DNA from: a virus
Strand: one strand, 5' to 3'
UHGV virus genome: UHGV-0125821
Length of the DNA stretch: 64,000 nt
Position numbers and translations under genes: made by a program
The notes under the pieces: model-generated
The model's database searches: none
What the model was told of the DNA's origin: nothing
What the model saw: the letters and a program-made list of their open reading frames with translations, nothing else
Shown here: positions 2,104 through 37,339 of the stretch, in pieces
How positions within the stretch are numbered: position 1 is the first letter of the stretch
Layout: each line of letters starts with the position of its first letter

Positions 2104-4021
2104 CAATCCTTTACGAATTAATATTCAGTCTACTTTTGCTGATACGATCCCCGGCTATGTGCCAAGTCGCTGGTCTTCAGAAGAATTAAGCGAAGATGAC
2201 CTGATTTTTGAGGCGGCGACCTTAGAAGATATTGAGCTTGCCTATATGGGCAATGAAATTCTGGTTGTGTCTGACGAAGCTATGTTTGAGTCCATAACTA
2301 CAACCAGAATTCGGTTAGCTCAAACAATGCGAGCTTTCGTCCGTGCGCTGAATCGTGGCCTGAATGGTACGAATATTATGGCAGGGACTGATGAAGCCGG
2401 GACCGATGAAAATGGACGTAATTGTATTGGTGGTGCGATTATCGGTCGTGTACGTCGGGTAGCTAATATCCCTGTTTTGACCGCGCAGATACCGCTTACT
2501 GACGGGCAGAGTACAAGCATAATTTTCCACTCTCCAACAGCTGACGGGGCAAAAATAAAGAGTAACGACGAGCTTGTTGCATTTCAGTTTTTACTTAATA
2601 AGCGTAACGTAACTCACGTTGTCGCCCCGATTGGTGGGAGAGATGTTTCTTTAAGCCAGGTATGCCAGGCGCTATCTAATTTGATTGAGCGTAACAGCGA
2701 AAAATTTAAGAAAGCAAAAGAGCGCCAGGACAAAATGAAGGCAGATATTGAGAGTTATCTCAATGAAGCAGATAAACTGGCAGAAGAACGGTCAATAATG
2801 ATTGATCAGGTGGACGTTGCGCAACGTGGGCTGACTGAAAAGCGTGCTGCTCTTACGGAGATGCAAAAAAAACTTGATGCCCAGAAAGCCATCAACGAGG
2901 AATTACAAGAAAAACGCGATAAATTGTTGTCTGCTAAAGGTGAAAAAACGAAGGAACGAGCGTTTAGTGACCAGCTGCGACATGTAAAACATAATCTTGC
3001 CATTGACGGAAAAACAGTGCTGGATAATGGCGCTGAAGTTAATTATATCACGTCCGGCAGTGACAATTTCGTTACGATAGTAGCACCTGAAGGTAAATTC
3101 AGTATTGATGCCAGTGCTGTCAAAGGAGGCAGTTTGGCAGATGCTGCAACCAAATTACTTAAAGCCTACCGAGAGCATAACGCAGATAAATATAAAGTTG
3201 ATGTGTTACCAGGCCAGCAGGAAGACCCCGAACCACCACAGACAGACCCCGAGACGAACCCAGTATCACAACCAGAGAGCCAGGATGTAGGTAAATACCA
3301 CTATGCACTTCAATCTCGCCCGGCTGGTGTTGGTGCTGTGCCGGATGGAAATAAAGCCGTGCTTGATCGTCCTGACCAGGCTGATCAGTATTACGAATAT
3401 GCTCGTCACGGTATCATTACGTATGACCGTAAACTGACAGATGAAGAAGTCAGCCAGTACGAGTTGCTCTATCTTCCTGATGAAGATGAGCTGAAAGATT
3501 TTGCAGGCCAATTGGTTGTGTCCAGCATGTCGAAACATATTGATGGCTATGTAGACCTGTTTGGCAGTGACCTGAAAACATTCAAGGCGCAAGTGAAAAT
3601 TCTTTTCCGCAAAGCGTTTCCAAACGTGGCGTATCCACTTGGTGATGGGGAGAACCTTTTCATTATGGACGTGTATAACGCCCTTCAAAATCATTCAAGC
3701 GAAGTAAAAACAGAGCATGTGGTTGAGCCGGAATCACAACCACAACCAGCACCAGAACAGGAGCCGGAGCCAGAAGAAGCTGGTGAATCAGCAAGTGAAG
3801 CTGATCAGGAGGCAGATAAAGCACTGGAGTACCTGAAATCCGTGCCGGAGCAGTTTACATCCCGCGATCTGACGGTCATCAGTGCTGAACTTGATCATGT
3901 GCAGGAAGCAGCAAACGCTCTAATCAGCGCAGGTCGATACGACGAGAACGAAGCCACTGTTGGTGCAGCAGTTGACTACCTGATCAACATTCTGGCTGAA
4001 ATTCAGCAGGGAGGTGCTTAA
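2096..4021 (+). CDS. Large internal head/antirestriction-type protein (DarA-position; about 641 aa)
   Basis: Size and operon position match P1 DarA; ATG at 2096 follows a GGAGG; acidic Pro/Glu-rich linkers. I do not recognise the sequence itself, so the name is positional. Confidence 0.45.
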   Translation: MINNPLRINIQSTFADTIPGYVPSRWSSEELSEDDLIFEAATLEDIELAYMGNEILVVSDEAMFESITTTRIRLAQTMRAFVRALNRGLNGTNIMAGTDEAGTDENGRNCIGGAIIGRVRRVANIPVLTAQIPLTDGQSTSIIFHSPTADGAKIKSNDELVAFQFLLNKRNVTHVVAPIGGRDVSLSQVCQALSNLIERNSEKFKKAKERQDKMKADIESYLNEADKLAEERSIMIDQVDVAQRGLTEKRAALTEMQKKLDAQKAINEELQEKRDKLLSAKGEKTKERAFSDQLRHVKHNLAIDGKTVLDNGAEVNYITSGSDNFVTIVAPEGKFSIDASAVKGGSLADAATKLLKAYREHNADKYKVDVLPGQQEDPEPPQTDPETNPVSQPESQDVGKYHYALQSRPAGVGAVPDGNKAVLDRPDQADQYYEYARHGIITYDRKLTDEEVSQYELLYLPDEDELKDFAGQLVVSSMSKHIDGYVDLFGSDLKTFKAQVKILFRKAFPNVAYPLGDGENLFIMDVYNALQNHSSEVKTEHVVEPESQPQPAPEQEPEPEEAGESASEADQEADKALEYLKSVPEQFTSRDLTVISAELDHVQEAANALISAGRYDENEATVGAAVDYLINILAEIQQGGA

Positions 4022-4471: not shown

Positions 4472-5869
4472 TTGGAGTGTATTTTGAACAAATCAGTTAC
4501 TTCTGCGCTTTCCGGGGCCACAGATATTAACAGCGTCATTGCTCTGGTTTCTTCATTAGAGAGGAAAGAAACACGCCTGGGGCGAAGTAGCTACGTAGTC
4601 ACCAGCAAAGGTGCAGAGGTAAAGACGGCTTTTAAGGTCGTTGATGCCAGCAGTCTGATCATTTCGAACAACCTTGACGGTACGATTAACCCGGCCTTCC
4701 CGGAAGAACTCCAACCACGAGATCGTACCCGGTTATCCAGCAAACTCCAGGTTAACCGTATTGCCTCCAATTTACGCCCGGCACAATTAACGGATTCCGG
4801 TATGAGCAGCCACGGAGCGCCGATAGTTGGTCCGGACAACGTTGTTGAATCCGGCAACGGAAGGAGTATGGGTATCTGGCGTGCCTATGAGCAAGGACAG
4901 GCGGATGAGTATCGCCAGTACCTGATCGACCATGCGAAAGAGTTTGGTCTGAATCCTGACGAAATTTCGCAAATGTCTATGCCCGTACTGGTGCGAGAAA
5001 GACTCACAGATGTAGACCGCGCTCAATTTGCCCGCGATTCAAACATTAGCGATCTGCAAGAGATGGCAGCAAGTGAAAAAGCGTATGCGGATGCGCAATT
5101 TCTCACTGAGAGCGTCATGGCGCTATTTAATCCTTCAGATGATGGAAATCTGCTGGCGCGGTCCAATGATGCGTTTATTCGTGCGTTTTTGCGCGAAATT
5201 GGCGATACAGCGACAGCAGGCTTGCTTACTGCCGATGGGCGTCCCACGAAACAGCTTATCGATCGCATCCAGAATGCAATTTTTGCCAAAGCGTACAAGG
5301 ATGAAAGGCTTGTTCGGCTGGTGTCGGAAGAGCCAGATCCGGAAATGCGTAATATCCTGACCGCATTAAATACGGCAGCCAGCGATTTTGCGCAAATGCA
5401 GTCGCTGTCTGGCGACGCTCACCATGACGCAGTAACAGGCTTAGTGGACGGTATAGAGCAGGTTAATGGCCTGGATACACAGGCGATAGCAGCACTCCAG
5501 GAAGCAATTAATCTTGTACGTGAAGCCAAAGACAACGGTCAGGCCGTTGAAGAAGTGATCGCCCAAAGGGGGTTATTCGGCGACAGTACACCGGAAGCTG
5601 AGGCATTGGCGTTATTCATCGTAGCAAATAATCGCAGTGCGAAGCGTATGGGGGCAGCATTCAAAAAAATGGCGCAAAAAATCAACGACGAGCTGACTCA
5701 TAAACAACAGGCATTGGGCGATATGTTCGGCGGTGGCGATGTTGATCTGCGTCGTATTTTGTCTGCTGTATCTGATGAAATTGAGGGTGAATTTGGCGAA
5801 GGGAAAGGTCTGAACTTTGCTATGTTTGAAAATTCTACAGATCTAAATAATTGCCGTACGGAAAACTAA
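4472..5869 (+). CDS. Hypothetical protein (dar-like operon)
   Basis: 465-aa ORF with TTG start in the track; an in-frame TTG at 4484 has a better-spaced GGAG. Confidence 0.55.
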   Translation: MECILNKSVTSALSGATDINSVIALVSSLERKETRLGRSSYVVTSKGAEVKTAFKVVDASSLIISNNLDGTINPAFPEELQPRDRTRLSSKLQVNRIASNLRPAQLTDSGMSSHGAPIVGPDNVVESGNGRSMGIWRAYEQGQADEYRQYLIDHAKEFGLNPDEISQMSMPVLVRERLTDVDRAQFARDSNISDLQEMAASEKAYADAQFLTESVMALFNPSDDGNLLARSNDAFIRAFLREIGDTATAGLLTADGRPTKQLIDRIQNAIFAKAYKDERLVRLVSEEPDPEMRNILTALNTAASDFAQMQSLSGDAHHDAVTGLVDGIEQVNGLDTQAIAALQEAINLVREAKDNGQAVEEVIAQRGLFGDSTPEAEALALFIVANNRSAKRMGAAFKKMAQKINDELTHKQQALGDMFGGGDVDLRRILSAVSDEIEGEFGEGKGLNFAMFENSTDLNNCRTEN

Positions 5870-5933
5870 ACCAACCGCTGAAATCACATACTGATTATGC
5901 TGCCGCAAAACTGGAAACAATTTGCGGTGATTC

Positions 5934-7616
5934 ATGGCAACGAAAGACAAAAACAAAGGCTTTCTGTCAGCATTGAAGAAAGCCTTCAACGGTGGTGATG
6001 TTACGCCCGCCGATCCGGTCGTTTTTACGAGCGGACATAGTGTCGTTGCTCGTTCCGGCCTGTCTGCTTTACGTCCAGGCATCCTGGGGAGCAATAGCGA
6101 TGGCATGACGAGTGAAGCAGATTCAATTTCTTTATCCGCTGAACTGCCCGGCGAGCGCCTGCAAAAGTACAACATCCTGGAAACGATGGCTAAAAGCCCG
6201 ACTATCTCGACGGCTTTAAATATTCACATTGCACATGCGCTTGCGCCTTCAAAAAAAACCGGACAAGCATTCATCCTTTCGCCAAAGGATGGTTCCGATG
6301 CCGAGGCAGTAAGTAGATGTGAAGAGTTAACCGCTGATTTGGGGGCGATGATTAATGACGGACTTCCTTCATGGGCCATGATTATGGCGATCTTTGGGGT
6401 GTCTTATGTCCGACCTTATGCTGAACAGGGCAGGGGGATAACAGGCATTGAGTCCAGTTATTACACTCTGCCACACTTCGTCCAGGAGTTTTATCGTGGT
6501 AGCCAGCTGGTAGGTTTCAGTGGTGATTACATTCTGGATACGCATAGTTTGCGCAGAGTAATAACCGAACCGTGGAATCTGGTTTCCATGAAAAATCCCT
6601 ATTGGACGCCACAGCATAAAGTTATTCCGGTTAGCTACGGCACAAAAGGGTACTCACTGTTAAGTGATCAGGCTGATAAGCCGTTAATGGAGACGCAGAA
6701 TTACGGAACTTCATTCCTGGAATACAGCTATGAACCTTACCTTAATTTATGTGCTTCGCTCGCCGCGCTGAAATCAACGCGAAATAATGCAGCCAAAATT
6801 GACCGCCTGATTGCTCTTACGACGAACACACTGGACCCGGTTAATGCGGCGAACTATACGCGTGGCGTCAGCCAGGCATTGAAGCGTCATAGTGACCTGG
6901 TGGCGCAAAGGTCGATTAATGCCAACGCTATTCCGACTGTGCTTAACCATCTGATACCTGTTATGGGAGACGGGAAGAACGGCATCACCATTGATACGCA
7001 ATCCATACCCGCAGATATCAGTGGTATTGAAGACGTTATGTTTCACCTCCGGCAGCTTGCTGCAAGCCTCGGCATTGACGCAACAATGCTTGGCTGGGCT
7101 GATCAGATGAGCGGAGGGCTTGGAGAAGGCGGCTGGCAGCAAACTGCTATCCAGGCTGCATTGCGTGCGAACTGGATCAGACAGGCCGCCCAGCGAACTA
7201 TTTATCGGCTTCTGGACATTCACCTCGCTTATAAATATGGCAAGGTTTACACCGAAACAAACCGCCCTTATGACGTGCAATTCAACTCAATGAACACAGC
7301 TATCCAGGAAGAGGAAAACCGAGAACTGGATGCACGCGCCAACTTTGTTGCTGTCATCTCCCAAATTATGGACCAGATCCAGAACAACCCGAAACTGGCT
7401 GGTAGCGACGCGTTTATGCGTTATCTGTTCACTGAGCAGTTGCACATCGACGATGACACTCTCAACACCATGATCAAAGAGTTTAAGGCGAATGAATCAG
7501 AGCAAAACAACGAGCATGGTATGTACGAATCCGCGCCGTTGTCGTCCGGTGACGATCCGGAAAACTGGACGCCAGAACAGTTAATAAACTTTGCAAAATT
7601 TGTGATGAGCAATTAA
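5934..7616 (+). CDS. Hypothetical protein (dar-like operon)
   Basis: 560-aa ORF on the same strand, tightly packed. Confidence 0.55.
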   Translation: MATKDKNKGFLSALKKAFNGGDVTPADPVVFTSGHSVVARSGLSALRPGILGSNSDGMTSEADSISLSAELPGERLQKYNILETMAKSPTISTALNIHIAHALAPSKKTGQAFILSPKDGSDAEAVSRCEELTADLGAMINDGLPSWAMIMAIFGVSYVRPYAEQGRGITGIESSYYTLPHFVQEFYRGSQLVGFSGDYILDTHSLRRVITEPWNLVSMKNPYWTPQHKVIPVSYGTKGYSLLSDQADKPLMETQNYGTSFLEYSYEPYLNLCASLAALKSTRNNAAKIDRLIALTTNTLDPVNAANYTRGVSQALKRHSDLVAQRSINANAIPTVLNHLIPVMGDGKNGITIDTQSIPADISGIEDVMFHLRQLAASLGIDATMLGWADQMSGGLGEGGWQQTAIQAALRANWIRQAAQRTIYRLLDIHLAYKYGKVYTETNRPYDVQFNSMNTAIQEEENRELDARANFVAVISQIMDQIQNNPKLAGSDAFMRYLFTEQLHIDDDTLNTMIKEFKANESEQNNEHGMYESAPLSSGDDPENWTPEQLINFAKFVMSN

Positions 7617-31520: not shown

Positions 31521-31552
31521 TAACTTTAAATAATTGGCATTATTTAAAGTTA
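31521..31552. other. rox site (Dre recombinase target), 14-bp inverted repeats around a 4-bp spacer
   Basis: TAACTTTAAATAAT-TGGC-ATTATTTAAAGTTA is the reverse orientation of the rox sequence as I recall it; it can also be read as a 34-bp lox-like site with 13-bp arms; about 150 bp upstream of dre. Confidence 0.85.
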
Positions 31553-31704
31553 GGCTATAATCATGTGTAGATGAACAGTATTGACATCACTGAAAATACG
31601 TACCTCGAATCAAAGGCTTGTATTTTGAAAATTAACTTATAGCTACCCTGTCATTTTTATATTTTTCGCGTAGCATCATCTGTATATAGAGGTGAAATAG
31701 TTTC

Positions 31705-32733
31705 ATGAGTGAATTGATTATCTCTGGCAGTTCCGGTGGTTTTCTGCGCAACATTGGCAAAGAGTACCAGGAAGCCGCAGAAAACTTTATGCGGTTCATG
31801 AATGACCAGGGGGCTTATGCGCCGAATACTCTGCGCGACCTCCGGTTGGTGTTTCATTCCTGGGCGCGCTGGTGTCACGCTCGCCAGCTTGCCTGGTTTC
31901 CGATCTCACCAGAAATGGCCCGCGAGTATTTTCTTCAGTTGCATGATGCCGATCTGGCTTCGACCACCATTGATAAGCACTACGCCATGCTTAACATGCT
32001 GCTTTCTCATTGTGGCCTTCCGCCACTTTCGGATGATAAAAGTGTTTCTCTGGCTATGCGGCGTATCCGGCGCGAAGCGGCAACGGAAAAAGGCGAACGA
32101 ACAGGCCAGGCTATACCGCTGCGATGGGACGACCTGAAACTGCTCGACGTCCTGTTGTCCAGGTCAGAACGGCTGGTGGACCTGCGCAACCGGGCTTTTC
32201 TCTTTGTTGCATACAATACGCTGATGCGTATGTCGGAAATCTCGCGTATTCGTGTAGGAGATCTGGACCAAACAGGTGACACCGTCACGCTACATATTTC
32301 ACACACGAAGACAATAACGACCGCCGCCGGGCTTGATAAGGTGCTTTCCCGTCGCACTACTGCTGTGCTGAATGACTGGCTGGATGTTTCCGGGCTTCGT
32401 GAACATCCTGACGCGGTGCTGTTCCCGCCGATACACCGTAGCAATAAGGCCAGGATTACGACAACGCCCCTTACTGCACCTGCAATGGAGAAAATATTCA
32501 GCGACGCCTGGGTGTTGCTGAATAAAAGGGATGCCGCGCCAAACAAAGGGAGATACCGGACGTGGACCGGGCATAGTGCTCGTGTCGGGGCCGCTATCGA
32601 TATGGCTGAAAAGCAGGTGTCTATGGTGGAGATCATGCAGGAAGGAACCTGGAAGAAACCGGAAACACTTATGCGGTATCTGCGCCGTGGCGGTGTGTCT
32701 GTGGGGGCTAATAGCCGCTTGATGGATTCGTAG
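31705..32733 (+). CDS. dre: Tyrosine site-specific recombinase, Cre family (Dre-like)
   Basis: 342 aa; aligns with Cre across conserved blocks (FLFVAYNTLMRMSEISRIRVGDL versus Cre FLGIAYNTLLRIAEIARIRVKDI; WTGHSARVGAAIDMA); adjacent rox site. Confidence 0.9.
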   Translation: MSELIISGSSGGFLRNIGKEYQEAAENFMRFMNDQGAYAPNTLRDLRLVFHSWARWCHARQLAWFPISPEMAREYFLQLHDADLASTTIDKHYAMLNMLLSHCGLPPLSDDKSVSLAMRRIRREAATEKGERTGQAIPLRWDDLKLLDVLLSRSERLVDLRNRAFLFVAYNTLMRMSEISRIRVGDLDQTGDTVTLHISHTKTITTAAGLDKVLSRRTTAVLNDWLDVSGLREHPDAVLFPPIHRSNKARITTTPLTAPAMEKIFSDAWVLLNKRDAAPNKGRYRTWTGHSARVGAAIDMAEKQVSMVEIMQEGTWKKPETLMRYLRRGGVSVGANSRLMDS

Positions 32734-32806: not shown

Positions 32807-33151
32807 TTGCAGAGTCAAATCACGGAATCAAGACGCTTTAAGGTGGATGGTTACACCGTAACCTTCGCTGCTGGTGTTAAGAACAGTCATGCTGTCGTTG
32901 TATTCGGCATCATGACCGGGCTTGAGGCCGTCCCTGTGTTTACCCTCGAAAAAAACTGGCGAAATCTGGAGGAAGCAGAAAGCTACGTCCGGAAAGTAAC
33001 CATCATTGCCGCCGAAAAACTCCTGGCCCACTATCAGGAAAATTATCGCACTATGGTCGAGAAGATTAATCTCGCTTTCACTCGCCCCACTACCGGCTTT
33101 ATTGCACCGGATACTAATGCAGGTCGCTATCCTGCAAGGGGGCGTCGGTGA
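32807..33151 (+). CDS. Hypothetical protein
   Basis: 114-aa ORF (TTG start in track). Confidence 0.4.
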   Translation: MQSQITESRRFKVDGYTVTFAAGVKNSHAVVVFGIMTGLEAVPVFTLEKNWRNLEEAESYVRKVTIIAAEKLLAHYQENYRTMVEKINLAFTRPTTGFIAPDTNAGRYPARGRR

Positions 33152-33624
33152 AAACTTATTACCCATCTCTGAATTGTTACCCGTCTTCCTATCCAGGATT
33201 GTCCGGGAAGCTGTTAGCTCTATTAGCTAAAGCACCTACGGAATGGTTTAAGCCAGTCGTTATCAATCCACACTTCCTGGATTACGGATCTGTTCGCACT
33301 CGTAACGAACTCAAAAACTTACTGGCGCATGGATTCATTCGACACCGTGCCGGTAAAGGCTATCAGTTATCGATTGCGCCAGAAGAGGCCGTGCGGCTAT
33401 TCGCATATCGTGACAGCCAGACAAAAGCTCGGGTAATAGCTCAAATACTTCATAACGGCAGCACCTATGCCCGCCAGTTTGGCGGCGACACGTCGCAGTT
33501 CTTGCGGGCGGTGCGATCGCTGGAGGAGCAAGGAGTTATTGAAAGTTCCTGTCTTCCTGTTCCTACCGTTCCACATATCAAACGTCGGGTTTACACCTTC
33601 ACGCAGAGAGCTAAAAAACAATGA
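33148..33624 (+). CDS. Hypothetical protein, possible winged-helix DNA binder
   Basis: 158 aa; 4-nt overlaps with both neighbours. Confidence 0.5.
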   Translation: MKTYYPSLNCYPSSYPGLSGKLLALLAKAPTEWFKPVVINPHFLDYGSVRTRNELKNLLAHGFIRHRAGKGYQLSIAPEEAVRLFAYRDSQTKARVIAQILHNGSTYARQFGGDTSQFLRAVRSLEEQGVIESSCLPVPTVPHIKRRVYTFTQRAKKQ

Positions 33625-34115
33625 TTTACGTAAAAGTGAAACGCCTACATCCGGCAGCAAAACTTCCAGCTTATGCCACCTCCGGATCGGCGGCGATGGA
33701 TTTTGAGGCTGTTGAAATAAAACCATGTGTCGATAGCAATGGTGCAATTTCCTCAAGCTGGTGGGTATACACCGGACTGGCTATGGAGATCCCGCCCGGC
33801 TGGTGTCTGAAACTCTATCCGCGTTCCGGATTGGGCTGCAAAAAACATACTCGCCTGGCTAACTGCGTAGGAATTATCGACTCCGATTATCGCGGTGAAA
33901 TCATGGCAAAACTGATTACAGATCCCGGTGGTGAAGGCGTTTGCCTCAAGCCAGGAATGGCGGTCATGCAAGGCATTTTTGAGCGTGTTGAACCGGTATC
34001 GCTGGTAGAAGTTGATGAACTCGATGAAACAGAGCGAGGCGCTGGTGGCTTTGGTAGCACATCGGAAGACCGCGTTGAAATCAAGCGTACACCGCTTCAG
34101 TACGCAAAGTTTTAA
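33621..34115 (+). CDS. dut: dUTP pyrophosphatase (dUTPase)
   Basis: Conserved dUTPase motifs GIIDSDYRGE and RGAGGFGSTS. Confidence 0.85.
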   Translation: MIYVKVKRLHPAAKLPAYATSGSAAMDFEAVEIKPCVDSNGAISSSWWVYTGLAMEIPPGWCLKLYPRSGLGCKKHTRLANCVGIIDSDYRGEIMAKLITDPGGEGVCLKPGMAVMQGIFERVEPVSLVEVDELDETERGAGGFGSTSEDRVEIKRTPLQYAKF

Positions 34116-34129
34116 GTAGAGGAAGGATT

Positions 34130-34792
34130 ATGGTCAGCACTTTTCAGGTGTTCCCCAAATACAAATGCCACAGCATCATTCGGGCATCGAAAATCAAAGA
34201 TATTGTTATTGTCGGCAAAGCTTATGCGCCCATTTTTGGCAGTATCGAAGTCGTTGAGCCAAAAGGAATGACGCTTCGTGTTGATGGTGTGTTCTTGGAA
34301 AAATTCCGACCGCAAATAGGAGGATATCTCGTCACTGCTGAAAATGGCTATCTGGTCTATGTGCCAGAGAAAGCATTTGAAAAATGCTATAGCCGGGTTA
34401 ACGACGCCTCCGAAAATGGGGTATCGCTCAGCATTGAAGGTCACAATGGGGTGACATTCATTACAGCCAGGGACGTAACTATTTCTGCTGGCGGTATCGC
34501 TACTCTACAAGAAGAAATCGACCTTGAAGCAGCCGACTTTTCTGACGCGCTGATGTGGCTGAAGGATGGCAAGAAAGTTGCCCGGCGCGGGTGGAACGGC
34601 GAAAACCAATTCTGCTGGCTGGTTCCTGAAGGACAGTACCCGGCACGAATGGAAGCCATTAAGGGATATTTCCCCGGCGATCTCGTTCCGTATGGTGCTT
34701 ATTTCGCCTTAAAAAATGCACAAGGTGTAGTTGTTCCGTGGTTGCCTTCTGTAGGCGACTTACTGGCATGTGACTGGTTTGTAGTGGAGTGA
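34130..34792 (+). CDS. Two-domain protein with C-terminal DUF2829 (Tad2-like) domain
   Basis: C-terminal DALMWLKDGKKVARRGWNG...VVPWLPSVGDLLACDWFVV fits the DUF2829 pattern; N-terminal about 130 aa unassigned. Confidence 0.5.
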   Translation: MVSTFQVFPKYKCHSIIRASKIKDIVIVGKAYAPIFGSIEVVEPKGMTLRVDGVFLEKFRPQIGGYLVTAENGYLVYVPEKAFEKCYSRVNDASENGVSLSIEGHNGVTFITARDVTISAGGIATLQEEIDLEAADFSDALMWLKDGKKVARRGWNGENQFCWLVPEGQYPARMEAIKGYFPGDLVPYGAYFALKNAQGVVVPWLPSVGDLLACDWFVVE

Positions 34793-34798
34793 TTTAAC

Positions 34799-35599
34799 GT
34801 GGAAAATACTAAAGCAATTCAATACCGCTTGCGTAATGGCCTGCTGGTGGCTGTGAACGCCGACATGTCACTGCCGTTTGACACGATTGAACGTACTATC
34901 ATGACGTATCTCGGCTTTAATGAAGAGCTGAATGAAGAGCATGGCGTAGCTATATGGAGTGATGCAGAAAGCGGCGTTCATCGTTACATCACCGCCAGGG
35001 GCAAAGACTACTCTCTGGAAGAACTGTTTACCCTTGCACAGTCTTTCGAATGTGTAGCATTAGACATGTTTAATGATCCTGCTATAGCGCAACGACTTAT
35101 ACGCGAGCTTGGGCTATCCGTTACACCAATTATCTTTAAGAATGGCAGCCTGACTGGCACATGGCGCGTAGAACGCATCTCAAACTACCTTCCATATAAC
35201 CGACAGTTAAATGGAGTAATCTCCGGCGTTAATCAGCCCGTAGCGTGTGAAAATGTAAACCTGGTTGCCGCTGTTTTGGCAACCGCATGTCGTGTTATCG
35301 GTTTGGCTAAACAGGCATTTATTCATTTCCCAAATGGTGCAGAAGGTAGCGCAGAGATTATCGCGTGTGATTTCGAATTTACCTGGATGCTACGCGAATA
35401 TCTGGACCAAACAGTATTCCGTGCCGAAGAACTGGATATGTATATCACGTCAACGATTCCAGACGATGTGCGAGCTGAAGCAATCGCTACAGCCAGGGCG
35501 AAATGCCGTGCGGCGATTGCAGAGCAGGCCAAAGAAGAACCGTCCGATGAAGCCGTGGCTGATGTTGAAGCAGAGGTAGCGGAGGATGCTGACGCCTAA
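34799..35599 (+). CDS. Hypothetical protein
   Basis: 266-aa ORF (GTG start in track); acidic C-terminus. Confidence 0.5.
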   Translation: MENTKAIQYRLRNGLLVAVNADMSLPFDTIERTIMTYLGFNEELNEEHGVAIWSDAESGVHRYITARGKDYSLEELFTLAQSFECVALDMFNDPAIAQRLIRELGLSVTPIIFKNGSLTGTWRVERISNYLPYNRQLNGVISGVNQPVACENVNLVAAVLATACRVIGLAKQAFIHFPNGAEGSAEIIACDFEFTWMLREYLDQTVFRAEELDMYITSTIPDDVRAEAIATARAKCRAAIAEQAKEEPSDEAVADVEAEVAEDADA

Positions 35600-35653
35600 A
35601 AACATCACCGAATTAGCTGGCTGACAGCAGAAAAAATCATTGAGTGATAGTAG

Positions 35654-35685
35654 GAAGCCCGCCTGGTTGAGCGGGCTTCTTTTCA
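35654..35685 (+). terminator. Rho-independent terminator between convergent genes
   Basis: GAAGCCCGC-CTGGTTGA-GCGGGCTTC followed by TTTTC. Confidence 0.7.
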
Positions 35686-36063
35686 AATATTGGAACCAAA
35701 TAATTCACGTAGTTTTTCCGCTACTGAAGATACGGGGATTTCTCCAGTTGCGGCCCCCACCGCAAGTTCCACCAGCACGGGAGAATCATATACCTGTATA
35801 CCGTTACGGCGTAGAAATAGCAGCGCACTGTTTAGCGCGGTACGCTTATTGGCATCATTGAATATATGCCCTCTCGCCGTAGCCACCAGGTAGGTGGCGG
35901 AGACTTCGAAAAGGTCGGTGATCTCTTCGTAGGCAACTCTGGCCTGAACTCTCCCGATAATGGCCTCTGCCCTACCCGGATCTGACATTCCCGGCAGGCC
36001 GCCGTAGCGGCTTATATTCGCATCATGAAGCGCAATAAGTTCTTCCGGTGATATATGCCTCAT
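35683..36063 (-). CDS. doc: Doc toxin (Fic-fold kinase; death on curing)
   Basis: Near-identical over most of its length to P1 Doc as I recall it ([22 protein letters not shown]...[13 protein letters not shown]). Confidence 0.95.
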
Positions 36064-36290
36064 TATCGGTTAACCAGTTCCTTGTTGGTGGAGTCCAGGG
36101 TGTCAAACAGGGATGCAAATTCAGCATCCAGCGCCGCTTTTTTGTAGGCTTCAAAAGTAGCCTTGCTGACAATTACTGCTGGCTCTCGGCCTCTGCGGGT
36201 GATTTCAACCTCTTCCCCGGCTTCAACATTGTTGAGCACTTCAGAAAGGTTGCCGCGCGCGGTACGGAAGTTAATGGATTGCATAAACAC
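36063..36290 (-). CDS. phd: Phd antitoxin (prevents host death)
   Basis: [32 protein letters not shown]... matches P1 Phd; stop overlaps the doc start. Confidence 0.9.
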
Positions 36291-36392
36291 CTCGTGTGCT
36301 CGTTATGTGTACGCAATTATAGGTTTTAATGATGCTGAATACCACTTCTTGGTGCCTTAAATCCTCGAGATGCAGTCTTGCAATTGCTGGGA

Positions 36393-36815
36393 TTAAGCAG
36401 AATAAGTGGTTGGAATTCTGAGCAGTAATCCAATCTTGGCTATGTGTGCATATGGCAGCTCTCCGGTTTTACCATCATGTATCGAGGCTATCAGATTCAA
36501 TTCTTGCGCCGCTTTACGAATTTCAGTTTCTGATGGAACAAGGCGAAAACCGGTGTGTAACATTTTGATATAGAAAGGTAATAGTTCGTACTTCACCCGT
36601 AACTGTGCTGCCGCATCTTTCAAATCATGGATGATTTCTTGTTTTAAGTCAGAGCGGGGATTCGATAGCTTTGCTTGGTTAGACAATAACAGATGCGATA
36701 TTTCCCCCAACTGTTCCTTGAATGAAATGTAAGACTCAACCCCCTTGATGATGAGTCGACCTAGGACAAAAACGCTTACTCCAGTGACAACAGTGACAAA
36801 AGCAGACGAACTCAT
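36393..36815 (-). CDS. Hypothetical membrane-anchored protein
   Basis: 140 aa with N-terminal TM helix; moderately AT-rich; downstream of doc. Confidence 0.45.
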   Translation of the reverse strand: MSSSAFVTVVTGVSVFVLGRLIIKGVESYISFKEQLGEISHLLLSNQAKLSNPRSDLKQEIIHDLKDAAAQLRVKYELLPFYIKMLHTGFRLVPSETEIRKAAQELNLIASIHDGKTGELPYAHIAKIGLLLRIPTTYSA

Positions 36816-36949: not shown

Positions 36950-37339
36950 TCATATAGCAGGACTATCATCAAATTCACCGCCCCTGGCGTCATTGATAAT
37001 GTGGGTGATCACACCAAAAACAGCATTACTACCCGTGTAACCATCGTCATCTACTGGTAACGCCTCTTTCTTCCCGGTGCTTAAATCCTCCAGGTGCTGG
37101 CGCGGATACTTCCGGTATCTTTTTACGCGATATTCCCCCTCCATAGCGCATATAAGCAGTGAGCCATCAACCGGAGTAAGTGAGGAATCAACCACCAGCA
37201 AAGCACCTTGCAATATTCCCTCACGGTGATGGCTGTCTGCCGCCCGCATGAAGTAGGTCGCTGAAGGATGTCTGATTAGTTGCTGATCAAGAGAAATACG
37301 GCTCTCTGCATAATCCGCCGCAGGAGAAGGGAAGCCCAT
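36950..37339 (-). CDS. humD: UmuD-prime-like SOS mutagenesis protein homolog (HumD-like, S24 peptidase fold)
   Basis: GFPSPAADY...HPSATYF...LLVVD...GEYRVKR...VFGVITHII aligns with UmuD lacking its N-terminal arm. Confidence 0.8.
   Translation of the reverse strand: MGFPSPAADYAESRISLDQQLIRHPSATYFMRAADSHHREGILQGALLVVDSSLTPVDGSLLICAMEGEYRVKRYRKYPRQHLEDLSTGKKEALPVDDDGYTGSNAVFGVITHIINDARGGEFDDSPAI

What the first reader, a model, noticed from the sequence alone, without database searches (positions are those of the whole stretch)
34130..34792. Two-domain protein with C-terminal DUF2829 domain downstream of dUTPase
The C-terminal about 90 aa fit the DUF2829 pattern (MWLKDGKKVARRGWNG ... LLACDWFVV), while the N-terminal about 130 aa are unassigned. 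A fused DUF2829 with an extra domain suggests a variant anti-defence or nucleotide-binding function.
Basis: inference. Interest (0 to 1): 0.55.

Follow-up and report, generated by a model that had tools for sequence, protein, structure and literature searches.

The report
Tad2 immune-signal sponge with extra OB-fold domain
This gene of a P1/D6-like phage-plasmid encodes a Tad2-type "sponge", a protein that soaks up bacterial anti-phage alarm molecules, joined to an uncharacterised OB-fold domain that in other phages is repeatedly fused to three unrelated sponge families and so may be an unrecognised counter-defence module.

Summary
ORF 34130-34792 (+) encodes 220 aa, 14 nt downstream of a dUTPase gene. 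Residues 133-220 are a clear Tad2/DUF2829 domain: Pfam E=2e-22, 47% identity to the solved Myroides Tad2 (9EIB), target-normalised TM 0.70-0.83, and the signal-pocket residues W155/N156, W204, S207 and D210 conserved.

The "unassigned 130 aa" are two parts:
- Residues 92-132 are a variable linker with low predicted confidence.

The OB domain has no match in Pfam, NCBIfam or PADLOC. It belongs to a large family of mostly stand-alone 85-130 aa phage proteins (more than 3,000 clusters). Among its longer members the only recurrent partner domains are Tad2, Sequestin and Acb2/Tad1, three unrelated sponge families. The same fusion logic recently led to the discovery of Sequestin.

This window's OB allele has lost 7 of 15 family-conserved polar or aromatic residues, and phage D6 has deleted the domain in frame. 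Its role in this protein is therefore uncertain.

The gene is common (229 PLSDB plasmids) and already annotated as DUF2829. Verdict: a genuine Tad2 family member with a new architecture; the OB family is the interesting lead.

The parts
34130..34792 (+). Whole gene: 220-aa protein with three parts (OB-fold, linker, Tad2 domain)
   Evidence: ORF list. 98% identical 220-aa proteins are annotated 'DUF2829 domain-containing protein' in E. coli. The gene is present in 229 PLSDB plasmids.
34119..34127 (+). Shine-Dalgarno-like purine run GAGGAAGGA ahead of the ATG
   Evidence: Read directly from the sequence.
34130..34402 (+). N-terminal OB-fold domain, aa 1-91 (Dec-like; phrog_11049 family)
34403..34525 (+). 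Linker, aa 92-132: beta-rich, pLDDT below 50, variable among homologues
   Evidence: Full-length model has pLDDT <50 for residues 92-132 and pTM 0.41. In homologues this segment exists as two beta-rich alleles, is helical, or is absent (alignment A1). dN/dS is about 1 with allele replacement.
34526..34789 (+). C-terminal Tad2 (DUF2829, PF11195) domain, aa 133-220
   Evidence: Pfam E=2.1e-22. phmmer against the PDB: ModTad2 9eib E=8.6e-21, HgmTad2/AcrIIA7 and SPO1 Tad2. Foldseek: 9eib and 8v3e at 41-47% identity, target-normalised TM 0.70-0.83. dN/dS about 0.09.
34592..34597 (+). Codons for W155-N156, the 'GWNG' pocket residues (SPO1 Tad2 W25/N26; HgmTad2 W21/N22)
   Evidence: Mapped through the alignments. 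Residue roles come from 10.1101/2023.05.01.538930 and 10.1101/2023.11.15.567273. W155 is invariant and N156 is present in 23 of 33 homologues.
34739..34759 (+). Codons for W204...S207...G209-D210, the second half of the ADPR-signal pocket (SPO1 W73/S76/T78/D79)
   Evidence: W204, S207 and D210 are invariant in 33 homologues. The T78/T92 position is G here (residue roles).
33621..34115 (+). Upstream gene: dUTPase
   Evidence: Pfam PF00692 E=1.3e-13. The D6 orthologue is annotated dUTP diphosphatase.
34799..35599 (+). Downstream gene, 6 nt after the stop: IsaA-like protein of unknown function, which follows this gene in both P1-like and D6-like elements
   Evidence: 47% identical to P1 IsaA aa 60-320. 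Same adjacency in SJ46 and D6. No Pfam, PADLOC or NCBIfam match.
31534..31561 (+). Only strong sigma-70-like site upstream of the co-directional gene string from cre to isaA-like (possible operon promoter; consensus match only)
   Evidence: TTGGCA-16-TATAAT, 11 of 12 matches. The scan found fewer sites than in shuffled sequence, so this is weak evidence.
35661..35676 (+). Terminator-like hairpin plus T-run after the isaA-like gene (possible end of the transcription unit)
   Evidence: Pattern match only; the count does not exceed that in shuffled sequence.

Best explanation
The gene encodes a modular counter-defence protein of a D6/P1-type phage-plasmid.

Shown: the C-terminal 88 aa are a bona fide Tad2 domain whose closest solved relative is the Myroides odoratus Tad2.

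Inferred: by analogy with solved Tad2 proteins, this domain assembles through helix alpha1 and the beta2/alpha2 region into a homotetramer. Its inter-protomer pockets (W155/N156 from one chain; W204, S207 and D210 from another) would sequester a TIR-made ADP-ribose-derived alarm molecule (His-ADPR, 3'cADPR or a relative). The host Thoeris-type effector would then never be activated. The beta2-beta3 insertion has the same length as in ModTad2 apart from one residue, so it may form a second pocket for a cyclic nucleotide.

Shown: the N-terminal 91 aa are a separate OB-fold on a flexible linker of about 40 aa. This OB-fold belongs to a large, uncharacterised family of small phage proteins. Family members occur alone or are swapped onto Tad2, Sequestin and Acb2 modules in either order.

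Inferred, with low confidence: the OB module adds a second, independent binding activity against host immunity, either another signal or a host protein. It would not alter the Tad2 pocket.

My estimates: Tad2 domain acts as a signal sponge, about 0.85. OB module is an independent counter-defence binder in its family, about 0.35. That activity is still intact in this particular allele, about 0.2.
For: - Tad2 domain: Pfam PF11195 E=2.1e-22. PDB sequence hits are ModTad2 9eib E~1e-20, HgmTad2 and SPO1 Tad2. Fold match has target-normalised TM 0.70-0.83 at 41-47% identity.
- Pocket residues W155, W204, S207 and D210 are invariant in 33 homologues. They correspond to residues shown by crystallography and mutagenesis to bind gcADPR (papers read).
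- Strong purifying selection on this domain, dN/dS about 0.09.
- Independence of the two modules: full-length pTM is 0.41 although both domains are individually well predicted and the linker has pLDDT <50. The linker is variable or absent in homologues. The reversed order Tad2-OB occurs in P0093, and triple OB-Tad2-Sequestin proteins exist (P0081, P0100, P0101).
- OB family: 931 representatives at E<=1e-3 and 3,269 clusters at E<=1e-5, mostly stand-alone proteins of 85-130 aa.
- Fusion partners: among 79 longer members, 15 of 18 Pfam-annotated partner domains are sponge families. These are Tad2 x7, Sequestin PF21825 x6 and the Acb2/Tad1 hairpin x2 (architectures; P0324).
- Precedent: fusion to known sponges is the criterion by which Sequestin was discovered and then validated (10.1101/2025.07.12.664507). 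That screen queried Pfam, where this OB domain is absent.
- Context: the gene sits in an accessory region. In SJ46 the same cassette lies just downstream of ssb, which in the P1 record lies behind promoters overlapping a C1 operator.
Against:
- Ligand specificity in the Tad2 family is not predictable from relatedness. Different homologues bind 3'cADPR, His-ADPR, N7-cADPR, cyclic dinucleotides or cUMP/cCMP.
- One adenine-contacting position (SPO1 T78 / Hgm T92) is Gly here. The HgmTad2 cyclic-dinucleotide contacts R31 and D34 are V165 and G168 (mapped).
- This window's OB allele keeps only 8 of 15 family-consensus polar or aromatic positions (K15S, H59F, Y70A, D72N, S76V, S78V, G86C). Phage-type OB-Tad2 fusions keep 14-15.
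- D6 carries an in-frame deletion of the OB domain and other truncated variants exist.
- dN/dS on the OB domain ranges from 0.19 to 1.3 on only 2-9 changes per class, which is inconclusive.
- The only characterised relative of the OB fold, Dec, binds capsids rather than small molecules.
- Fusion is association, not proof of function.
Confidence: 0.6

Rival explanations
1. The N-terminal part works like phage L Dec. The OB-fold binds the phage capsid or another virion component, and the beta-rich segment 92-132 trimerises. The Tad2 domain would then be virion-associated: displayed on the capsid, or packaged and injected in the way P1 delivers its Dar anti-restriction proteins.
For: - Dec is the top and only specific structural and sequence relative of the OB domain, and the secondary-structure elements occur in the same order (one search compared).
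- Like Dec, the OB is followed by a beta-rich stretch that is disordered in the monomer model. Dec residues 90-134 are disordered as a monomer.
- Some stand-alone family members are encoded in virion modules: between portal and major capsid genes (Ralstonia phage GP4; L010), and between T7_gp14/SLT internal-protein genes and a 2,378-aa ART-PolyVal protein (L013).
- This window's allele shares with Dec the loss of the family's polar consensus (F at position 59, hydrophobic residues at 76 and 78).
Against: - The gene lies in an accessory region between dut and isaA, or after ssb in SJ46, not in a head module.
- Most stand-alone members sit among small accessory ORFs.
- The family motif is conserved across phages with unrelated capsids, which argues for a common ligand rather than a lineage-specific capsid surface (inference).
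- The linker is helical or absent in many OB-Tad2 homologues. Its resemblance to a VgrG beta-helix is not significant, E=0.23.
- A Dec-like trimer clashes with Tad2 tetramer symmetry, and an external sponge could not reach intracellular signals.
Confidence: 0.15
2. Only the Tad2 domain matters. In this lineage the OB-fold is an inert or decaying appendage, at most a solubility or spacer module, inherited from an ancestral fusion.
For: - 7 of 15 family-consensus positions are replaced in this allele, and P1-like alleles differ widely at exactly these positions.
- In-frame OB deletion in D6. Natural dut-Tad2 deletion fusion P0054 and N-terminally truncated variants P0018, P0027 and P0038.
- Window versus P0011 gives 9 nonsynonymous and 2 synonymous changes in the OB, whereas the Tad2 domain has dN/dS about 0.09.
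- The Tad2 part is far more conserved than the OB part among P1-like plasmids.
Against: - The OB reading frame is intact in the great majority of homologous clusters and in 190 of 229 plasmids that cover at least 80% of the gene.
- The model is confidently folded, pLDDT 89.
- The other pairwise comparisons give dN/dS of 0.19-0.39.
- Rapid change at conserved surface positions is also what an arms-race target switch would produce.
Confidence: 0.22
3. The protein is an anti-CRISPR of the AcrIIA7 type, since DUF2829 was first reported as a type II-A Cas9 inhibitor.
For: The C-domain matches the AcrIIA7 chains 8kbi and 9kzr at E of about 1e-10 to 1e-12.
Against: Li et al. could not reproduce Cas9 inhibition by AcrIIA7/HgmTad2 in vitro or in vivo and showed that it is a gcADPR/cGG sponge. 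Type II-A CRISPR-Cas is not a typical system of E. coli or Salmonella (background knowledge). The closest relative here is ModTad2, not AcrIIA7.
Confidence: 0.03

Closest known systems
ModTad2 / MoTad2 (Myroides odoratus prophage Tad2; PDB 9EIB, 8V3E)
   Same: It is the closest solved relative of aa 133-220: 41-47% identity, E~1e-20, target-normalised TM 0.70-0.83. The beta2-beta3 insertion has the same length apart from one residue. The GWNG and W..PS..D pocket motifs are the same.
   Different: ModTad2 is an 89-aa single-domain protein, whereas this protein carries 132 extra N-terminal residues. ModTad2 binds His-ADPR and cUMP/cCMP; no ligand is known here. The published text read here names no ModTad2 contact residues, so its pockets could not be checked residue by residue.
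SPO1 Tad2 (gp34.65; PDB 8SME/8SMF/8SMG), founding member of the family
   Same: Same fold and same pocket residues: W25/N26 correspond to W155/N156, W73 to W204, S76 to S207 and D79 to D210.
   Different: Only 32-36% identity. T78 corresponds to G209. The insertion after beta2 is longer here, and there is an extra OB domain.
HgmTad2 / AcrIIA7 (PDB 8KBI-8KBM)
   Same: Same fold. The gcADPR-site residues W21/N22, S90 and D93 are conserved.
   Different: The Hgm cyclic-dinucleotide site lies in a 41-aa insertion that is much shorter here, and its key residues R31 and D34 are V165 and G168. cGG or cGAMP binding of the Hgm type is therefore not expected.
Known multi-sponge fusion proteins: Acb4-Tad2 (Pasteurella phage Pm86), Tad2-Sequestin, Sequestin-Acb4 (Tal et al. 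2025, 10.1101/2025.07.12.664507)
   Same: Same design principle: a Tad2 module joined by a linker to another small phage module. Relatives of this very protein carry Sequestin C-terminal to Tad2, as Tad2-Sequestin or as OB-Tad2-Sequestin.
   Different: The partner here is an OB-fold with no Pfam family and no demonstrated activity. In the published cases both partners are validated sponges.
Phage L decoration protein Dec (PDB 6E3C)
   Different: Dec is a 134-aa capsid-binding trimer with a C-terminal beta-helix spike and no Tad2 domain. Dec lacks the family's CHK and YEDGYxSxSP consensus. Here the gene is not in a structural module, and the post-OB segment is not conserved among homologues.

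Membership tests
Tad2 (PF11195 / DUF2829) immune-signal sponges | Matches the family profile above the curated threshold | tested here: met
   79.9 bits against a cut-off of 25, E=2.1e-22, aa 136-219 covering profile positions 2-73 of 73.
Tad2 (PF11195 / DUF2829) immune-signal sponges | Tad2 fold: N-terminal helix followed by an antiparallel sheet with an insertion after beta2 | tested here: met
   AlphaFold2 model pLDDT 73-85 over aa 133-220. The top 24 Foldseek PDB hits are all Tad2 structures, with target-normalised TM 0.57-0.83.
Tad2 (PF11195 / DUF2829) immune-signal sponges | Conserved residues of the gcADPR/ADPR-signal pocket (SPO1 W25, N26, W73, S76, T78, D79; Hgm W21, N22, S90, T92, D93) | tested here: met
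   W155, N156, W204, S207 and D210 are present, and W155, W204, S207 and D210 are invariant in 33 homologues. Only the T78/T92 position differs (G209) (residue roles).
Tad2 (PF11195 / DUF2829) immune-signal sponges | Homotetramer with pockets at protomer interfaces | not testable with these tools
   Only monomer prediction was available. The helix alpha1 region (IDLEAADFSDALMWLK) is the most conserved stretch of the family, which is compatible with an interface role.
Tad2 (PF11195 / DUF2829) immune-signal sponges | Sequesters a TIR- or cyclase-made signal and relieves Thoeris, CBASS or Pycsar defence | not testable with these tools
   Requires binding assays and co-expression experiments.
HgmTad2-type cyclic-dinucleotide pocket (subset of Tad2) | Long beta2-beta5 insertion with R31, D34, S47, F70 and N85 contacting cGG or cGAMP | tested here: not met
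   The insertion is about 17 aa shorter than in HgmTad2. R31 corresponds to V165 and D34 to G168 (alignment; residue roles).
Phage L Dec-type capsid decoration proteins | Dec-type OB-fold with detectable sequence homology | tested here: met
Phage L Dec-type capsid decoration proteins | C-terminal three-stranded beta-helix that trimerises | tested here: inconclusive
   Residues 92-132 are beta-rich and have low confidence in the monomer model. The only PDB resemblance is a VgrG beta-helix at E=0.23, not significant. The segment is helical or absent in other OB-Tad2 proteins.
Phage L Dec-type capsid decoration proteins | Binds the mature capsid; present in virions | not testable with these tools
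   The context here is non-structural, between dut and isaA. A minority of stand-alone relatives lie in virion modules.
Known sponge families other than Tad2 (Tad1, Acb2, Acb4, Sequestin, Lockin, TadIV-1), considered for the N-terminal domain | Sequence or fold match of aa 1-132 to one of these families | tested here: not met

The most novel reading that the evidence does not exclude
The N-terminal Dec-like OB-fold (phrog_11049; consensus LPxYxCHKxVxAxKI...KHxPxxGGYxVxYEDGYxSYSPAxAFExGY) may be the signature of a new, very large family of phage counter-defence modules (more than 3,000 protein clusters). It could be a further immune-signal sponge or an inhibitor of a host immune protein. It has been invisible to previous fusion-based screens because it has no Pfam model. 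The capsid decoration protein Dec would then be an exapted offshoot of this family. A variant of this reading is that the OB is a virion-targeting device that lets phages deliver ready-made sponges with their DNA.
Probability: 0.3. Interest if true: 0.8.

Novelty: new variant of a known kind. Interest (0 to 1): 0.55.

Why it matters
Tad2 sponges are a main route by which phages silence signalling immunity (Thoeris, and in some homologues CBASS and Pycsar). This result places a ModTad2-like allele on P1/D6-type phage-plasmids that are common in clinical and animal E. coli, Salmonella and Shigella: 229 PLSDB plasmids. That bears on phage-plasmid host range and on P1-based tools.

The more useful result is the OB-fold partner. 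It is a large, unannotated phage protein family whose only recurrent fusion partners are three unrelated sponge families. That is the same kind of signal that led to the discovery of Sequestin. It gives a concrete, cheap experimental target set: consensus-type stand-alone members, OB-Sequestin and OB-Acb2 fusions, and the SopranoGao OB-Tad2 protein. It also raises a testable evolutionary link between counter-defence modules and the capsid decoration protein Dec.

Tried and rejected
- Pfam, NCBIfam and PADLOC gave nothing for aa 1-132. PHROGs gave only 'unknown function' families.
- I searched the linker alone against PDB sequences for Dec-like or tail-fibre beta-helix homology. The best hit was VgrG at E=0.23, which is not significant.
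- I asked whether the OB domain could be Lockin, Sequestin, Acb2, Acb4 or TadIV-1. There is no sequence or fold match, and the published descriptions differ.
- I tried to get ModTad2 His-ADPR and cUMP contact residues from the papers. They appear only in figures, not in the text, so clade-specific pocket checks were not possible.
- I searched the supplements of the 2025 sponge-diversity preprint for this protein's peptides and found none. No evidence was found that it has been tested.
- Pairwise dN/dS between close alleles is informative for Tad2 (about 0.09) but rests on too few substitutions in the OB domain.
- Hits of the OB query to 1,177-aa and 2,543-aa repeat proteins (P0133, P0124) were set aside as low-complexity 'DGxFTYTPxxGF' repeat matches rather than homology.
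- The anti-CRISPR reading (AcrIIA7) was rejected on published evidence.
- GC content across 31-37.5 kb shows no compositional island around the gene.
- The promoter and terminator scans gave no more sites than shuffled sequence, so the operon boundaries are only suggestions.
Full report
**1. The observation**

Window 34130-34792 (+) is an ATG-started ORF of 220 codons. A purine-rich ribosome-binding stretch lies just upstream. The ORF starts 14 nt after the stop of a dUTPase gene at 33621-34115 (Pfam PF00692, E=1.3e-13). Six nucleotides after its own stop comes a 266-aa ORF that is 47% identical to P1 IsaA.

The surrounding genes identify the window as a D6-like member of the P1 group of phage-plasmids:
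- a Cre-like recombinase at 31705-32733;
- doc and phd at 35683-36290 on the minus strand;
- a humD/umuD-like gene at 36950-37339.

Window 33000-36500 is 96.8% identical to Escherichia phage D6 over 85% of its length.

**2. The C-terminal domain**

Pfam PF11195 (Tad2-like, formerly DUF2829) matches aa 136-219 at E=2.1e-22, 79.9 bits against a cut-off of 25.

Against PDB sequences the best hits are:
- the Myroides odoratus prophage Tad2 (9EIB with His-ADPR, 8V3E apo) at E~1e-20;
- HgmTad2/AcrIIA7, SptTad2 and SPO1 Tad2.

An AlphaFold2 model built on 33 homologues gives pLDDT 73-85 for aa 133-220. Its first 24 Foldseek matches in the PDB are all Tad2 structures, with 41-47% identity to ModTad2 and target-normalised TM 0.70-0.83 for those chains.

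Crystallography and mutagenesis have identified the residues that hold 1''-3' gcADPR. In SPO1 Tad2 they are W25, N26, W73, S76, T78 and D79 (10.1101/2023.05.01.538930). In HgmTad2 they are W21/N22 and S90/T92/D93 (10.1101/2023.11.15.567273). Through the alignments these map here as follows:
- W155, N156, W204, S207 and D210 are conserved.
- Only the Thr position differs (G209).
- W155, W204, S207 and D210 are invariant in 33 full-length homologues.

The HgmTad2 cyclic-dinucleotide site is not conserved. R31 corresponds to V165, D34 to G168, and the insertion is much shorter. The beta2-beta3 insertion does have the ModTad2 length. In ModTad2 that region forms an extra pocket, proposed to bind cUMP.

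Between close alleles the domain shows 9 synonymous and 3 nonsynonymous changes, dN/dS about 0.09.

I conclude that aa 133-220 are a genuine, constrained Tad2 domain with an intact canonical pocket. Which signal it binds cannot be read from sequence. Tested homologues differ widely: 3'cADPR, His-ADPR, N7-cADPR, cyclic dinucleotides, cUMP/cCMP.

**3. The N-terminal 132 residues**

They are not one domain. In the full-length model, residues 1-91 have block-mean pLDDT of about 70-91 and residues 92-132 fall below 50. The overall pTM is 0.41, which indicates two independently placed domains.

A second model of aa 1-100 used 61 stand-alone relatives. It reaches pLDDT 89.4 and pTM 0.77, with the element order beta0, beta1-3, helix, beta4-5, helix. 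The evidence that this is a Dec-like OB-fold:
- Foldseek agrees.
- The relationship is also visible in sequence: phmmer E=0.0019, and a profile of the family hits Dec alone at E=7.8e-6.

Dec consists of this OB-fold plus a C-terminal segment. That segment is disordered in the monomer and forms a trimeric beta-helix on capsids (PMC6449081).

The linker here is beta-rich (VSLSIEGHNGVTFITARDVTISAGGI). It has no significant relative (VgrG beta-helix, E=0.23). In other OB-Tad2 proteins it is replaced by a different beta-rich allele or a helical segment, or it is absent.

**4. The OB family and its partners**

A full HMMER scan of 1.84 billion representatives with aa 1-132 found 931 proteins at E<=1e-3. 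A profile search of the 5.8-billion-cluster set found 3,269 at E<=1e-5. Nearly all are 85-130 aa 'hypothetical proteins' without any Pfam domain.

The family consensus is LPxYxCHKxVxAxKI ... KHxPxxGGYxVxYEDGYxSYSPAxAFExGY. PHROGs files the family as phrog_11049, function unknown.

Pfam scanning of the 79 representatives longer than 135 aa gave only six partner families:
- Tad2, 7 proteins;
- PF21825, now called Sequestin, 6 proteins;
- the Acb2/Tad1 hairpin, 2 proteins;
- DUF1508, RyR and DUF551, 1 protein each.

Local HMMs resolved the following architectures:
- OB-Tad2;
- OB-Sequestin;
- OB-Acb2 and Acb2-OB;
- OB-OB tandems;
- Tad2-OB (reversed order);
- the triple OB-Tad2-Sequestin.

A MazG-like pyrophosphatase PHROG and a Vibrio phage MazG protein also contain the fold.

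So 15 of 18 annotated partners belong to three evolutionarily unrelated families of immune-signal sponges. Tal et al. (10.1101/2025.07.12.664507) used exactly this kind of observation, Pfam families fused to Tad2 or Acb4, to discover and validate Sequestin. Their screen could not have seen a domain that has no Pfam model.

A 2026 paper lists the known sponge families as Tad1, Tad2, Acb2, Acb4, Sequestin and Lockin, plus the new TadIV-1 (PMC13243611). None is an OB-fold. No paper in the searchable library connects an OB-fold with these proteins.

**5. Reasons for caution about the OB domain in this particular protein**

- At 15 family-conserved polar or aromatic positions this window's allele keeps only 8. 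The changes are K15S, H59F, Y70A, D72N, S76V, S78V and G86C.
- OB-Tad2 proteins of lytic phages, such as Klebsiella phage SopranoGao gp55, keep 14-15. The other P1-like alleles are scattered between 6 and 13.
- Phage D6 itself carries an in-frame deletion that removes the OB barrel and leaves a leader, linker and Tad2 protein of 146 aa. Other truncated forms and a dUTPase-Tad2 deletion fusion occur.
- dN/dS on the OB domain ranges from 0.19 to 1.3 on a handful of substitutions and decides nothing.

These facts fit either decay or fast adaptive change of a binding surface.

Contexts of stand-alone members are mostly accessory small-ORF regions. Three lie in virion modules:
- between portal and capsid genes;
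- next to internal-protein and polyvalent-protein genes.

Together with the Dec homology, this keeps a virion-association role alive as a rival.

**6. Genomic setting and distribution**

The gene belongs to a co-directional string from cre to the isaA-like gene. That string has one strong sigma-70-like site upstream of cre and a terminator-like hairpin after the isaA-like gene. Both are pattern matches only.

In the Punavirus SJ46 the same cassette lies between ssb and isaA. In P1, ssb is transcribed from promoters overlapping a C1 operator.

P1 itself lacks the cassette precisely. The first 58 aa of P1 IsaA correspond to a leader that in SJ46 precedes the OB-Tad2 coding sequence. The rest of P1 IsaA corresponds to the separate isaA gene.

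Megablast finds the gene in 229 PLSDB plasmids, annotated as 'DUF2829 domain-containing protein' in the rows listed. By species they are Escherichia 198, Salmonella 23, Shigella 7 and Klebsiella 1; 225 are non-mobilisable and the listed records are mostly 90-100 kb. The locus is mosaic. The OB, linker and Tad2 insertion each exist in several alleles that recombine.

**7. Mechanism**

Most likely (inferred from family membership, about 0.85), the Tad2 domain tetramerises and sequesters a TIR-derived ADPR-type signal. It may also bind a cyclic nucleotide in a second pocket. This would blunt Thoeris-type, and possibly Pycsar-type, abortive-infection responses of the host.

The OB-fold is an independent module on a flexible tether. 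For its family, the best-supported role is a second counter-defence binding activity (about 0.35). The rivals are virion association (about 0.15) and an inert or decaying appendage in this lineage (about 0.22). The AcrIIA7 anti-CRISPR reading is rejected on published evidence.

**8. Novelty and verdict**

The protein is a true Tad2 family member, already present and generically annotated in databases. Its Dec-like OB, linker and Tad2 architecture has not been described in the literature I could search. I rate the finding itself as a new variant of a known kind.

The wider lead is the more novel reading: a family of more than 3,000 clusters of small OB-fold phage proteins that partners specifically with sponges. 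It needs experiments.

Interest is 0.55. If the OB family proves to be a new counter-defence module, interest would be about 0.8.

Noticed in passing
L001 (phage D6, NC_050154) 2594-3034, compared with window 34130-34792: The D6 orthologue is 146 aa. An in-frame internal deletion joins the first ~20 codons (MNNMATKELFKFLPKYKAHK) directly to the linker, removing the OB barrel. D6 also carries the other linker allele.
   Followed up: yes
L007 (phage P1, NC_005856) 4570-5532, compared with L006 (SJ46) 4806-6440: P1 lacks the OB-Tad2 cassette exactly. The first ~58 aa of P1 IsaA match the leader that precedes the cassette in the SJ46 annotation. The rest of P1 IsaA matches the separate isaA gene. 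P1 isaA therefore looks like the product of a precise loss, or SJ46 of a gain, of this gene.
   Followed up: partly
Proteins P0054 and P0023 (homologues): P0054 (241 aa, 15 member sequences) is a dUTPase-Tad2 fusion created by a deletion between the 'GAGG' of dut and the 'SAGG' of the linker. P0023 (306 aa) has a tail-fibre N-terminus (PF03406) joined into the middle of the OB domain. Both look like rearrangement products.
   Followed up: partly
Alignment A1, columns for window aa 163-203 (nt 34616-34738): The Tad2 beta2-beta3 insertion exists in at least three alleles among P1-like plasmids: PEGQYPARMEAIKGYFPGD as here, a short LAGSVNLH form, and a long PDKQGASRLTPIKHAANGELEINFDSP form. This is the region that forms the second ligand pocket in other Tad2 proteins. 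Ten of the 33 homologues, which carry a short form of the insertion, also have N156K in the canonical pocket.
   Followed up: partly
window 34799-35599 (+): An IsaA-like 266-aa protein with an acidic C-terminal tail follows the OB-Tad2 gene in D6-like and P1-like elements. It has no Pfam, PADLOC or NCBIfam match, and its function is unknown.
   Followed up: partly
window 32807-33151 and 33148-33624 (+): Two overlapping ORFs (114 and 158 aa) lie between cre and dut. They have no Pfam or PADLOC match and are conserved in D6 as orf117 and orf116.
   Followed up: partly
Proteins P0057, P0073, P0076, P0257 and P0112 (not in the window): A different small module ending in ...GDWI[IV]K...G..Y.C.P..FE.[TI]Y.P also recurs immediately N-terminal to Tad2, sometimes after the OB domain. 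P0112 carries yet another short beta module with a similar GYxxxSPxxVFExxY ending. These may be further unannotated partners of sponge domains.
   Followed up: no
L013 5001-5264 (metagenomic contig): A stand-alone 87-aa OB family gene overlaps by 4 nt the start of a 2,378-aa ART-PolyVal 'polyvalent' protein gene. It follows T7_gp14-like and SLT-domain internal virion protein genes, a context typical of injected proteins.
   Followed up: no
window 35683-36290 (-) and 36950-37339 (-): The doc/phd addiction module (93-95% identical to P1) and a humD/umuD'-like gene flank the region. A 140-aa ORF at 36393-36815 (-) with a hydrophobic N-terminus has no family match.
   Followed up: partly
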